Origin: Candidatus Bipolaricaulota bacterium
GTDB lineage: Bacteria; Bipolaricaulota; Bipolaricaulia; RBG-16-55-9; DRXL01
Direction: 5' to 3'
DNA: 64,000 nt
Assembly: GCA_036783095.1 (NCBI GenBank)
Contig: DAIPXV010000001.1
Coordinates: 4,043 to 68,042, forward strand
This document shows positions 14,076-57,392 of this stretch, in pieces (position 1 is the first letter of the stretch; each line of letters opens with the position of its first letter). The position numbers were made by a program, and so were the translations under genes. A model generated the notes under the pieces. It had not been told where the DNA came from and made no database searches. It was given only the letters and a program-made list of their open reading frames with translations.

Positions 14076-14606
14076 TCACTTCTCTCTTTGAGATTCTTCG
14101 TAGAGCCGATTTACAAACTCCAGCACGCGTCTCTGGTCCAGCTCATCCAAGAGTTCAACTTTTCTGCGGATGCGCTCAGGAAGCCCTGCTTCGGCTTCTT
14201 TGGCGACTTTCTCTAAGAGTGCTTTCTGAGCGAGCCGGTGCGCCTTCCAGTTGGCGTCGCGCTCCACGTAGTTCACTTGCCAGTTAGGGAGCTTCGCGAG
14301 CAATTCTTGGACTTGGCGATTGAGCGGCTCGAGGTGCGGCCGACGAATGCGATAGAGCCCGTTGACTTGATTTGCTAAAAGCTGGCTATCAGTGAAGAAG
14401 ATGACACGTTTGGGCGCGAGCGGGATAACAGCTTTAATCGCCTCAATGAGCGCGCGATATTCTGCGACGTTATTCGTCGTGCGCCCGATGTGCTCCGAGA
14501 TCTCTTGGATGACGTTCCCCTCAGCATCGGCGATGACGATTCCAATAGCGGCTTCGCCAGGGTTCCCCTGAGAGGCGCCGTCTACGTTCACAAAAAGTTT
14601 CCCCAT
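14076..14606 (-). CDS. rnhA: Ribonuclease HI-like (type-1 RNase H fold with C-terminal extension)
   Basis: MGKLFVNVDGASQGNPGEAAIG (DGAS.GNPG)...NNVAEYRALI...FFTDSQLL...ERDANWKAHRLA. The longer track ORF overlaps the tRNA and is an artefact. Confidence 0.7.
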   Translation of the reverse strand: MGKLFVNVDGASQGNPGEAAIGIVIADAEGNVIQEISEHIGRTTNNVAEYRALIEAIKAVIPLAPKRVIFFTDSQLLANQVNGLYRIRRPHLEPLNRQVQELLAKLPNWQVNYVERDANWKAHRLAQKALLEKVAKEAEAGLPERIRRKVELLDELDQRRVLEFVNRLYEESQREK

Positions 14607-14647
14607 AAACTGAAAACTCAGAACTGTGAACTCTCTAACTGTCTTTG

Positions 14648-14720
14648 TGGGCCCGGCAGGATTCGAACCTGCGACCAACCGGTTATGAGCCGGCCGCTCT
14701 GACCCCTGAGCTACGGGCCC
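14648..14720 (-). tRNA. tRNA with anticodon CAU (elongator Met or Ile-lysidine type), CCA not encoded
   Basis: Reverse complement GGGCCCGTAGCTCAGGGGTCAGAGCGGCCGGCTCATAACCGGTTGGTCGCAGGTTCGAATCCTGCCGGGCCCA. Anticodon loop cuCAUaa. Anticodon stem is not the GGG/CCC initiator type. Confidence 0.8.
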
Positions 14721-17548: not shown

Positions 17549-17651
17549 GGAATGGGGAAAAGACGAGTCAAGGCCATAAAAATCCTTATAGAATAAGAAC
17601 TTTCGCGCGCGGACAGCCTTGAGCTGTCAGGGAGCTTCAGAGGGAGATATA

Positions 17652-18110
17652 ATGGAAATCCGGATTGAGTTGGCGCGCCTCGCATACGCTGAAAATATCT
17701 TGCGGTGCACCAACGAGCCTCCGGAGATGGTGGAAGATTTGCTCTCATTAGATGGCGAGCTGGAGAAGGCGCGTCGCTGGTTTGTCTTTGCCGAAGCCAA
17801 GCGACGCTTTGACCCCAATATCGTCCGCGGGCTATTGGTCTATCTCTTCAGTCACTACGCGAGCACGGAGTTCGACCCGCGCAAGCGAGAGCAGCTGGTG
17901 CGCGAGATCATGGAGGGGCGCGTGCGCATGCGCGATCTCTCTATAGAGCGCTTGGCTGGAACCCGCTTGAGTTGGGAGCATATCTTTCGATTAGTCGGGC
18001 GTCAATTCAATCCCACCCGCGAGAAAGAGAAGATTAAAGAGCTGTATGCGCAGCTCTACTCGTCGGCTTCTGCCCCTTCTATCTCCCCGGAGGTGTCATA
18101 TGGACACTAA
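17652..18110 (+). CDS. Hypothetical helical protein (not sigma-70-like) translationally coupled to an anti-sigma-like gene
   Basis: No sigma region 2/4 motifs were seen. 11-nt overlap with the next gene. Confidence 0.45.
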   Translation: MEIRIELARLAYAENILRCTNEPPEMVEDLLSLDGELEKARRWFVFAEAKRRFDPNIVRGLLVYLFSHYASTEFDPRKREQLVREIMEGRVRMRDLSIERLAGTRLSWEHIFRLVGRQFNPTREKEKIKELYAQLYSSASAPSISPEVSYGH

Positions 18111-18621
18111 CTATCCCCCTCAGCAGCCGGAACCAGACCACGAGCAGCTTGCGGAATTTGCTGAGCTCTTTGCGGGATTGAAACAATTAGAGTATTCAAA
18201 TCATCCCAGCGACGAGGTCCTTCGGGCTTATATAGACAATAGACTCTTAGACGGCTCTGGGGCGGGGCGCGTGGGGGCGACCTTCCGCGATGAGCGAGCA
18301 TTTCAGAGATTTGTGCAAGGGCAGCTCACCCGCTGGACGCGCTCCGACGTCTCCATGCACGTGCTCACCTGCGTTGTGTGTCAACATCGAGTTGCGCAGT
18401 TACGAGCAAGCCGCTGGCAGTGGCTCGGCTTGGCCCGTCAGCGCCCCAGAGAGGAGCCGAGTTGGCCGCGGCGCCTTGCGCTTGGAGCTCTGGCGAGCGC
18501 GGCCGCCGCCGCGATCATTGCGGCTATTTGGCTATGGCCTGTCGGCCCGCCAACACCACCCTACGACTCTCCCACGATAGGCAGCATCATGATGGTGTAT
18601 CGCGGATCAGGGAGATTCTAA
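18100..18621 (+). CDS. Putative zf-HC2 anti-sigma factor-like membrane protein
   Basis: VLRAYIDNRLLDG...MHVLTCVVCQHRVAQL (H-x3-C-x2-C zinc motif). TM helix LALGALASAAAAAIIAAIWLW. RBS GGAGGTG before the ATG. Confidence 0.55.
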   Translation: MDTNYPPQQPEPDHEQLAEFAELFAGLKQLEYSNHPSDEVLRAYIDNRLLDGSGAGRVGATFRDERAFQRFVQGQLTRWTRSDVSMHVLTCVVCQHRVAQLRASRWQWLGLARQRPREEPSWPRRLALGALASAAAAAIIAAIWLWPVGPPTPPYDSPTIGSIMMVYRGSGRF

Positions 18622-57257: not shown

Positions 57258-57392
57258 GGAACTCCCTCTCTGTCTGTACATTGACCCTTATTGTATGCCA
57301 AGAGCAACCGCTCAGCAACCCTCTTCGTAACGCCTATGACTGACAATCCCAGATGTCCCGGTTATCGTGGATAATTGACGAAGGAGGTCACT

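What the first reader, a model, noticed from the sequence alone, without database searches (positions are those of the whole stretch)
17652..18621. Anti-sigma-like zinc-finger membrane protein coupled to a non-sigma partner
The downstream gene has the zf-HC2 anti-sigma signature (LRAYIDNRLLDG...H-x3-C-x2-C, then one TM) and overlaps its upstream partner by 11 nt. The partner (about 150 aa, helical) lacks sigma-70 regions 2 and 4. This could be a novel pairing in which the anti-sigma-like protein regulates something other than an ECF sigma, or a highly divergent sigma.
Basis: inference. Interest (0 to 1): 0.5.

Follow-up and report, generated by a model that had tools for sequence, protein, structure and literature searches.

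The report
Anti-sigma-like protein with non-sigma partner
Two overlapping genes in an uncultured Bipolaricaulota bacterium encode a zinc-binding, membrane-anchored anti-sigma-type protein and a conserved helical partner that is not a recognisable sigma factor but seems to derive from the tail end of a very divergent sigma-like family, so this looks like an unusual variant of a common bacterial signalling switch.

Summary
Gene A (17652-18110, 152 aa) and gene B (18100-18621, 173 aa) overlap by 11 nt, and B has its own Shine-Dalgarno sequence inside A.

B is a class I zinc-type anti-sigma domain followed by one transmembrane helix:
- H35, H87, C91 and C94 are invariant in 26 diverse relatives.
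- They align to the ChrR residues I recall as its zinc ligands.

A is not unrelated to sigma factors, however. It is homologous (hhalign E 1e-15) to the C-terminal 140 residues of a roughly 410-aa family from the same phylum. In that family:
- the N-terminus weakly matches sigma region 2 (P 3e-5);
- the C-terminus weakly matches the region 4.2 helix-turn-helix (P 5e-4);
- the two members checked also precede a ZAS-like membrane protein.

The A-B pairing is conserved in 31 of 37 genomic loci, as paralogous pairs, and A'-B fusions exist. A promoter-like element, TGTCAG-N17/18-TAnAAT, marks nearly all B-linked A genes.

Best reading: a sigma/anti-sigma-like switch whose output is a sigma-derived, sigma2-less helix-turn-helix protein. 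This is a new variant of a known kind.

The parts
17567..17594 (+). Upstream promoter-like element GTCAAG-N16-TAGAAT. It is the candidate promoter for the A-B transcript.
   Evidence: It is the only match in the 64-kb window (0.08 expected). GTCAAG and the TAnAAT-like hexamer are conserved in the alignment of 11 orthologous upstream regions. Function is inferred.
17625..17653 (+). Family-specific promoter-like element TGTCAG-N17-TATAAT. Its -10-like hexamer overlaps A's ATG.
   Evidence: It is the only match in the window. TGTCAG lies within -130..+10 of 28/42 A-family genes versus 9/270 other ORFs, and of 0/6 A genes without a B partner. The spacing to TAnn[AT]T is 17-18 in nearly all B-linked copies, against 4/102 other TGTCAG sites. 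Its role here is unresolved, because its position cannot give an mRNA that carries A's ATG.
17652..18110 (+). Gene A. It encodes a 152-aa all-helical protein of an unnamed Bipolaricaulota family, the partner of the anti-sigma-like protein.
   Evidence: ORF and Shine-Dalgarno sequence. 42 homologues, none with a Pfam domain. AF2 model with pLDDT 88.5, pTM 0.81 and eight helices. No similar solved fold. Homologous to the C-terminus of the ~410-aa family (probability 98.6%, E 1e-15).
17967..18068 (+). Residues 106-139 of A (LSWEHIFRLVGRQFNPTREKEKIKELYAQL...). This is the most conserved segment and a putative helix-turn-helix resembling sigma region 4.2.
   Evidence: Helices 108-115 and 121-139 are separated by a 5-residue turn. 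N120, P121 and R123 are invariant. The equivalent segment of the long family aligns to ECF sigma 4.2 with P 4.6e-4. A alone does not (P 0.08-0.25), so this assignment is inferred.
18089..18095 (+). Shine-Dalgarno sequence GGAGGTG for gene B, lying inside the 3' end of gene A.
   Evidence: Read directly from the sequence. It is consistent with translational coupling across the 11-nt overlap.
18100..18621 (+). Gene B. It encodes a 173-aa protein: a cytoplasmic zinc-type class I anti-sigma domain, one transmembrane helix, and a short external tail of about 27 aa.
18202..18381 (+). Putative zinc site: His35 (18202-18204) plus H87-x3-C91-x2-C94 (18358-18381). A lineage-specific insertion of about 30 residues lies between the two parts.
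   Evidence: H35, Y44, H87, C91 and C94 are the only invariant residues in 26 diverse B-like proteins. They align with ChrR H6, H31, C35 and C38. B contains exactly two cysteines. Zinc binding itself was not tested.
18475..18537 (+). Single transmembrane helix of B (about residues 126-146, LALGALASAAAAAIIAAIWLW).
   Evidence: Hydropathy maximum and AF2 helix 122-145. Arg-rich residues precede it, which fits an N-terminus-in topology (inference).

Best explanation
A and B form a translationally coupled, Bipolaricaulota-specific regulatory pair that works like an ECF sigma/anti-sigma switch but has an atypical output protein.

B is a single-pass membrane protein. Its cytoplasmic N-terminal domain is a zinc-binding class I anti-sigma domain (ZAS).

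A is a compact 152-aa helical protein. It descends from the C-terminal module of a very divergent sigma-70-like family of about 410 aa found in the same phylum. A keeps that module's conserved, region-4.2-like helix-turn-helix but has no sigma2 domain, so it is not a complete sigma factor.

Inferred mechanism:
1. In the resting state B's anti-sigma domain holds A at the membrane.
2. A signal releases A. The signal is either thiol oxidation or zinc loss at H35/H87/C91/C94, or proteolysis of B.
3. Free A acts as a DNA-binding or RNAP-associated regulator at promoters that carry TGTCAG(A) about 18 nt upstream of a housekeeping-type TAnAAT -10 element. In most paralogous modules these include the promoter of the module itself.

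Shown: the gene pair, its conservation, the ZAS character of B, the absence of detectable sigma2/sigma4 in A, A's homology to the long family, the fusions, and the cis-element association.

Inferred: the physical A-B binding, DNA binding by A, the nature of the signal, and the link between A and the TGTCAG element.
For: Pairing:
- 11-nt overlap with an internal Shine-Dalgarno sequence.
- 31 of 37 A loci in GTDB genomes carry an overlapping or adjacent HxxxCxxC+TM ORF directly downstream. The pairs fall into several deep paralogue groups, often two pairs per MAG.
- Natural fusions of a truncated A with a B-like ZAS+TM protein occur at a locus that likewise follows an RNase H gene.

B as a ZAS anti-sigma domain:
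- Four invariant candidate ligand residues.
- ChrR is the top PDB hit, with those four residues aligned.
- Weak zf-HC2, antisigmaE and ChrR family hits.
- NF038083 (CU044_5270), B's best NCBIfam hit, annotates the gene overlapping an ECF sigma gene in Streptomyces.

A is not a sigma: searches are all negative, despite a model with pLDDT 88.5.

A is derived from a sigma-like family:
- hhalign of A versus the long-family C-terminus gives probability 98.6%, E 1e-15.
- The long-family N-terminus versus ECF sigma2 gives P 3.1e-5, with regions 2.2-2.4 in register.
- The long-family C-terminus versus sigma 4.2 gives P 4.6e-4.
- Reversed-sequence controls give P 0.37-0.69.
- P0087's five hits in NCBIfam are all sigma families, and it hits Pfam Sigma70_r2 at E 0.01.
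- The two long-family genes inspected are each followed by a ZAS-like membrane protein overlapping by 4 nt.

Cis element.
Against: - No direct evidence that A and B bind each other.
- A alone shows no similarity to sigma4 or any helix-turn-helix family by HMM, hhalign or fold search.
- The sigma link rests on two weak hhalign matches of a related family. After correction for about 14 comparisons these are roughly 4e-4 and 6e-3.
- Only 1 of 22 long-family members hits a sigma model.
- In the window-type orthologues the TGTCAG-N17-TATAAT element overlaps A's start codon, so it cannot be the promoter of A there.
- The fusion proteins lack A's putative recognition helix. That fits poorly with A being a released DNA-binding factor in that lineage.
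- Six A genes have no adjacent B.
Confidence: 0.5

Rival explanations
1. A is a complete but extremely divergent, minimal sigma factor. Its N-terminal four helices act as sigma2 and its C-terminal four helices as sigma4, and B is its ordinary anti-sigma factor.
For: - Gene order, overlap, paralogous pairs per genome and a shared promoter-like motif upstream are all typical of ECF sigma/anti-sigma modules.
- A has 4+4 helices in about 140 residues.
- A's relatives give weak sigma signals.
Against: - In the long family the whole A domain, both halves, lies C-terminal to the sigma2-like region. A's N-terminal half is therefore not the sigma2 equivalent.
- A's N-terminal half versus ECF sigma2 gives P 0.14.
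- The associated -10 element is housekeeping-like TAnAAT. From my own knowledge of ECF promoters, this is not what ECF sigma2 domains usually read.
Confidence: 0.12
2. A is not the output. It is a sigma-mimic, decoy or accessory factor that binds B's anti-sigma domain. It would be a PhyR-like anti-anti-sigma without a receiver domain, or a stabilising co-factor. B's real target would then be the long sigma-like protein or another sigma encoded elsewhere.
For: - A is homologous to the C-terminal module of the long sigma-like family, the side an ASD would be expected to contact. Class I ASD helix 1 is reported to bind sigma4 (PMC7406223).
- The fusions keep only the middle of A and lose the putative DNA-reading helix, as expected if binding B is what matters.
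- The same phylum encodes both long and short forms.
Against: - The two long-family genes inspected have their own dedicated ZAS-like partner.
- The most conserved part of A is the FNPTREKE helix-turn-helix-like segment, which is also conserved in the long family. This argues for a shared output function and against a mere binding surface.
- No regulatory domain such as a receiver is attached to A.
- Whether the window's genome has a long-family gene is unknown. None lies in the 64-kb window.
Confidence: 0.15
3. The adjacency is not regulatory. B is a small zinc-binding membrane protein with some other role, and A is an unrelated cytoplasmic helical protein co-transcribed with it.
For: - Pfam does not call zf-HC2 in the window's B.
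- A has no assignable function.
Against: - The pairing survives across deep paralogue groups with only 21-38% identity in B.
- The two proteins are fused in one lineage.
- Anti-sigma domains dominate both the sequence-profile and the fold hits for B.
Confidence: 0.05

Closest known systems
ECF sigma factor with a class I zinc-binding anti-sigma factor (ZAS), e.g. SigE-ChrR, SigL-RslA, SigW-RsiW, SigR-RsrA
   Same: - The upstream regulator gene overlaps the downstream anti-sigma gene.
- B has the H-x(n)-H-x3-C-x2-C pattern, an anti-sigma-domain-like predicted fold and a single transmembrane helix.
- Several paralogous pairs occur per genome.
- A shared promoter-like motif lies upstream of the modules.
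   Different: - The upstream protein has no detectable sigma2 or sigma4 domain and a compact single-domain predicted fold with no solved relative.
- The associated -10 element looks housekeeping-like.
- B's domain carries an insertion of about 30 residues between the first His and the HxxxCxxC motif.
- B has almost no extracytoplasmic domain.
Split or non-canonical sigma factors: B. subtilis SigO-RsoA two-subunit sigma, and SigI-type factors whose C-terminal domain replaces canonical sigma4 (as reviewed in PMC7826278)
   Same: These are precedents for sigma functions divided between polypeptides, and for sigma-family proteins whose C-terminal promoter-reading domain escapes the Pfam sigma4 model. 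A would correspond to the sigma4-side piece.
   Different: - No sigma2-only partner gene was found in the window or in any of the fetched loci.
- The anti-sigma partner here is a ZAS domain.
- A shows no sequence similarity to SigO or SigI that the available library searches (NCBIfam, Pfam) could detect.
PhyR-NepR-EcfG partner switching (a sigma-like domain used as an anti-anti-sigma decoy)
   Same: A sigma-derived domain that may exist to bind an anti-sigma protein and not to bind RNAP.
   Different: - A has no receiver domain.
- NepR is not a ZAS protein.
- PhyR's sigma-like domain is clearly recognisable as sigma2+sigma4, whereas A is not.
These three statements about PhyR and NepR come from my own knowledge and were not tested here.
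Bipolaricaulota ~410-aa family (e.g. UniRef H5SSP5_ACEAU, listed as uncharacterized) with its ZAS/2TM partner
   Same: - Its C-terminal 140 residues are homologous to A (E 1e-15), including the (F/C)NPTR(E/V)K helix.
- In the two loci inspected it is followed by a ZAS-like membrane protein overlapping by 4 nt.
- TGTCAGA lies upstream of it.
   Different: - It has about 270 extra N-terminal residues with a weak sigma region 2 signature.
- Its TGTCAGA lies 25 nt, not 17-18 nt, from the TAnAAT hexamer.
- Its partner has a C-terminal 2TM domain.

Membership tests
ECF (group 4) sigma-70 family: gene A | A sigma2 domain (regions 2.1-2.4; Pfam Sigma70_r2 / TIGR02937) | tested here: not met
   No Pfam or NCBIfam hit at E<=10 for A, and none for the 41 family members in Pfam. 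hhalign of A or its N-terminal half against a 14-sequence ECF sigma2 alignment gives P 0.09-0.14. The upstream ORF space allows at most 20 extra residues.
ECF (group 4) sigma-70 family: gene A | A sigma4 domain (regions 4.1-4.2 helix-turn-helix; Pfam Sigma70_r4/_r4_2) | tested here: inconclusive
   No HMM hit. hhalign of A against sigma4 gives P 0.15-0.25, and the merged A plus long-family profile gives P 0.079 in the expected register. The long-family C-terminus alone gives P 4.6e-4. Secondary structure is compatible with a helix-turn-helix. No sigma4 appears among the fold hits.
ECF (group 4) sigma-70 family: gene A | Two-domain sigma fold resembling solved sigma factors | tested here: not met
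ECF (group 4) sigma-70 family: gene A | Binding to core RNAP and promoter-specific initiation | not testable with these tools
   This needs biochemistry.
Class I anti-sigma domain, zinc-binding subtype (ZAS; Pfam zf-HC2): gene B | H/C-x(n)-H-x3-C-x2-C zinc-ligand motif | tested here: met
   H35, H87, C91 and C94 are invariant in 26 relatives at 21-65% identity. They align to ChrR H6, H31, C35 and C38. The spacing between the first His and the HxxxCxxC motif is 51 residues here because of an insertion, and about 25-30 in paralogues.
Class I anti-sigma domain, zinc-binding subtype (ZAS; Pfam zf-HC2): gene B | Match to the Pfam zf-HC2 model at its gathering score (22.2 bits) | tested here: not met
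   No hit at E<=10 for the window protein. 9/32 orthologues hit with best E 0.013, and 3/26 diverse relatives with best E 1.2e-4; for the two relatives whose bit scores were shown (about 11 bits) the match is far below the gathering score.
Class I anti-sigma domain, zinc-binding subtype (ZAS; Pfam zf-HC2): gene B | Helical anti-sigma-domain fold | tested here: met
Class I anti-sigma domain, zinc-binding subtype (ZAS; Pfam zf-HC2): gene B | Encoded next to, and binding, a cognate sigma factor | tested here: inconclusive
   B lies next to a conserved partner in 31/37 loci, but that partner is not a recognisable sigma. Binding was not tested.
Two-subunit sigma (SigO-RsoA type) | A separate small sigma2-like subunit encoded with the sigma4-like subunit | tested here: not met
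   HMMs built from ECF sigma2 and from the long-family N-terminus find nothing in the window or in about 400 kb of related loci, apart from the long-family genes themselves. Only the local neighbourhoods were searched, not whole genomes.
PhyR-type sigma mimic | A sigma-like domain fused to a response-regulator receiver domain | tested here: not met
   A is 152 aa with no receiver domain and no Pfam hit.

The most novel reading that the evidence does not exclude
A is a free-standing surrogate for sigma region 4. When released from the ZAS protein B, it would supply recognition of a TGTCAG(A) -35 element in trans, while the TAnAAT -10 element is read by the sigma2 domain of another sigma, either the housekeeping sigma or the long sigma-like protein. 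That would be a naturally split or 'appropriated' sigma whose promoter-reading half is the part controlled by an anti-sigma domain.
Probability: 0.15. Interest if true: 0.85.

Novelty: new variant of a known kind. Interest (0 to 1): 0.6.

Why it matters
Class I anti-sigma domains are generally treated as dedicated partners of ECF sigma factors. Here a conserved, paralogously expanded ZAS module has a partner with no sigma2 domain and no recognisable sigma4. That partner is still traceable to a very divergent sigma-like family.

This would broaden what anti-sigma domains can control. It would give a natural example of a sigma-derived fragment acting as a regulator. It would also expose regulatory proteins that HMM-based ECF censuses cannot see in an uncultured phylum (Bipolaricaulota/Acetothermia).

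The associated TGTCAG-N18-TAnAAT element gives a directly testable target site.

Tried and rejected
- **afdb50 fold library.** Unavailable.
- **A-B complex modelling.** Not possible.
- **Ordinary ECF sigma hypothesis.** Rejected for A (see the membership test).
- **A canonical ECF sigma or a sigma2-only gene nearby.** None found in the window or in the Bipolaricaulota loci with home-made ECF HMMs.
- **A regulon in the window.** No further TGTCAG-N17/18-TAnnAT site. Relaxed matches fall inside genes.
- **TGTCAG as a general housekeeping -35 element.** Unlikely: 9/270 other ORFs have it upstream, and 4/102 other sites have a -10 hexamer at the right spacing. Two intergenic TTGTCAG copies in the window, at 57345 and 60074, may belong to ordinary promoters.
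- **Literature.** Searches found no description of these families.

Full report
**Observation.** The window region 17652-18621 holds two same-strand ORFs.
- Gene A runs from ATG 17652 to TAA 18108-18110 (152 aa).
- Gene B runs from ATG 18100 to TAA 18619-18621 (173 aa).
- They overlap by 11 nt.
- A is preceded by GAGGGAG (17640-17646). B is preceded by GGAGGTG (18089-18095), inside A's 3' end. This fits translational coupling.

**Origin and conservation.** Both proteins have only unnamed homologues. Where a source names them, they come from Candidatus Bipolaricaulota/Acetothermia MAGs. Orthologous loci keep the order FG-GAP protein, A, B (same 11-nt overlap), then a peptide ABC transporter.

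A scan of one genome per GTDB species found 37 A loci, all in Bipolaricaulota-type MAGs. Many MAGs carry two paralogues. In 31 of the 37 loci an ORF with H-x3-C-x2-C and a hydrophobic helix follows A directly. It overlaps A by 4-26 nt in 29 of these and starts about 30 nt downstream in two. The other six A genes have no such partner. Five of them are followed by a convergent ksgA gene.

**B is a zinc-type class I anti-sigma domain protein.**
- Pfam does not hit the window protein. NCBIfam gives weak hits to antisigmaE (0.012), ChrR (0.043) and CU044_5270 (2.5e-4).
- CU044_5270 annotates the gene that overlaps an ECF sigma gene on a Streptomyces plasmid.
- zf-HC2 is hit weakly by 9/32 orthologues and by 3/26 diverse relatives, best E 1.2e-4.
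- Across 26 B-like proteins at 21-65% identity, the only invariant residues besides Met1 are H35, Y44, H87, C91 and C94.
- The profile of that alignment finds R. sphaeroides ChrR as its best PDB hit (E 0.046). H35, H87, C91 and C94 align to ChrR H6, H31, C35 and C38. From my own knowledge these are ChrR's zinc ligands.

Each line is weak alone, but together they are consistent. The window's B differs from paralogues in two ways. It has an insertion of about 30 residues between the first His and the HxxxCxxC motif. Its external tail is very short.

**A is not a recognisable sigma factor.**
- No Pfam or NCBIfam family hits A at E<=10, and none of its 41 family members hits a sigma model in Pfam.
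- Profile searches of the PDB are empty.
- The AF2 model is confident (pLDDT 88.5, pTM 0.81): one compact bundle of eight helices.
- I built a 14-sequence ECF sigma alignment from E. coli RpoE and 13 plasmid ECF sigma genes. hhalign of A against it, or against its sigma2 and sigma4 halves, gives P 0.09-0.25.
- The ORF cannot extend more than 20 codons upstream.

**A is related to a sigma-like family.** An exhaustive profile search gave only 29 hits. Among them are proteins of 400-450 aa that carry the whole A domain at their C-terminus (hhalign probability 98.6%, E 1e-15). This long family is also from Bipolaricaulota/Acetothermia. In the two loci inspected its gene is followed by a ZAS-like membrane protein overlapping by 4 nt.
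- Its N-terminal 135 residues align to ECF sigma2, regions 2.2-2.4 in register, with P 3.1e-5 (probability 73%).
- Its C-terminal segment LSWeqIF..FGreCNPtRvK aligns to the sigma 4.2 helix-turn-helix with P 4.6e-4.
- Reversed-sequence controls give P 0.37-0.69.
- A shorter variant, P0087, hits Pfam Sigma70_r2 (E 0.01). Its five NCBIfam hits are all sigma families.
- The signal is not robust. Only 1 of 22 full-length members hits a sigma model, and PDB profile searches are empty.

I therefore treat sigma ancestry of the long family as likely but unproven. A is best described as its free-standing C-terminal module. The most conserved part of A, residues 106-139 with N120, P121 and R123 invariant, has helix, 5-residue turn, helix geometry. 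It is the segment that corresponds to region 4.2.

**Fusions.** Three representative proteins (P0085, P0088, P0091) join the middle of A (helices 4-7, without the FNPTREKE helix) to a B-like ZAS domain and a transmembrane helix. Contigs were fetched for P0085 and P0088. They are genuine single ORFs on several contigs, and like the window's pair they lie downstream of an RNase H gene. This supports a functional A-B link. It also shows that in one lineage the putative DNA-reading helix is dispensable.

**Cis element.** Upstream of A-family genes there is a recurrent element, [T/C]GTCA[G/A]-N17/18-TAnn[A/T]T (window 17625-17653).
- TGTCAG occurs within -130..+10 of 28/42 A-family genes, against 9/270 other ORFs.
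- None of the six A genes without a B partner has it.
- Nearly all B-linked copies have the -10-like hexamer at 17-18 nt, against 4/102 other TGTCAG sites.
- The hexamer is under-represented in the window: 10 copies against 27.4 +/- 4.6 expected.
- In most paralogue groups the element sits 20-80 nt upstream of the ATG, as a normal promoter would.
- In the window-type orthologues it overlaps the start codon. There, a second conserved element, GTCAAG-N16-TAGAAT at 17567-17594, is better placed to give the A-B mRNA.

I interpret the element as a family-specific regulatory site, probably for autoregulation. Its role in this locus is unresolved.

**Mechanism proposed (inferred).**
1. B tethers and inactivates A through its anti-sigma domain.
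2. Oxidation or zinc loss at the HHCC site, or proteolysis of B, frees A.
3. A then acts at TGTCAG-type promoters whose -10 element is housekeeping-like.

The model works like an ECF sigma/anti-sigma switch. Membership of A in the ECF family is not supported. Sigma2 was tested and not met, sigma4 was inconclusive, and the fold test was not met.

Rivals, with my confidence:
- A is a minimal complete sigma (0.12).
- A is a decoy or accessory for B, whose real target lies elsewhere (0.15).
- There is no regulatory link (0.05).

**Known comparisons.** From the literature, class I anti-sigma-domain helix 1 contacts sigma4 and helix 4 contacts sigma2, and the Hx3Cx2C motif marks zinc-binding members (PMC7406223). 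Split sigma factors (SigO-RsoA) and sigma factors whose sigma2 or sigma4 escapes Pfam are acknowledged gaps in ECF censuses (PMC7826278). No paper found describes these Bipolaricaulota families.

**Verdict.** This is a new variant of the sigma/anti-sigma theme, with a sigma-derived output protein that lacks sigma2. Interest 0.6.

Noticed in passing
window 17625-17653; also L018-L048 upstream of A-family genes: The promoter-like element TGTCAG(A)-N17/18-TAnAAT is strongly associated with A-family genes that have a B partner: TGTCAG lies upstream of 28/42 A-family genes versus 9/270 other ORFs, and of none of the six A genes lacking a B partner. In the window-type orthologues its -10-like hexamer overlaps A's ATG, so it cannot be the promoter for A there.
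   Followed up: partly
window, whole 64 kb: The hexamer TGTCAG is under-represented: 10 copies versus 27.4 +/- 4.6 in shuffles. All 100 shuffles had at least 10. Several of the 10 copies lie in intergenic regions upstream of genes (57345 and 60074, minus strand).
   Followed up: partly
window 18541-18567 (B residues ~148-156) versus orthologues P0044-P0075: Most orthologues of B have a two-cysteine segment in the external tail (CWIEEQCWQQV). The window's B lacks it through a deletion of about 12 residues, as do a few other members such as P0046. The window protein therefore has no extracytoplasmic cysteines.
   Followed up: no
L044 5001-6724; L045 5001-6775; proteins P0086, P0092, P0094, P0104-P0122: A ~410-aa Bipolaricaulota family, which includes a UniRef entry listed as uncharacterized (H5SSP5_ACEAU), has a weak sigma region 2 signature at its N-terminus and the A domain at its C-terminus. 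In the two loci inspected it precedes a ZAS-like protein, which in L044 carries a C-terminal 2TM domain (PF13239). It may be an unrecognised sigma family.
   Followed up: partly
L046 4001-4798; L048 4001-4771 (P0085, P0088, P0091): These are single-ORF fusions of a truncated A (helices 4-7) with a ZAS domain and a transmembrane helix. They lie next to the same RNase H gene that sits upstream of the window's locus.
   Followed up: partly
L022, L028, L033, L035, L036 (A followed by convergent ksgA); L023: Six A-family genes have no B-like partner, and these same six lack the TGTCAG element. In L004/L032 a paired A-B module sits beside msrB (SelR) and thioredoxin-like genes, which hints at a redox theme.
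   Followed up: no
proteins P0090, P0093, P0098, P0103: These distant A-domain relatives (180-196 aa) carry an inserted segment with two nearby cysteines (e.g. CPKCGGEIDY), possibly part of a zinc-binding insert, between helices. Their origin and genomic context are unknown.
   Followed up: no
window 14647-14720 (minus strand): A tRNA-Met (CAT) gene overlaps the 5' end of the mechanically listed RNase H ORF (14076-14678, TTG start). That start is therefore probably too far upstream.
   Followed up: partly
L008, L009, L011, L013, L016 and others: MAGs that carry near-identical A genes (88-93% identity) are labelled variously as Bipolaricaulota, Fraserbacteria or 'uncultured Thermotogae' in their records. 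The taxonomic labels look inconsistent.
   Followed up: no
L055 918-1095 (Streptomyces clavuligerus plasmid): A 'CU044_5270 family protein' gene overlaps the 3' end of an ECF sigma gene by 4 nt. This NCBIfam family therefore behaves like an anti-sigma partner, which helps interpret B's best NCBIfam hit.
   Followed up: no
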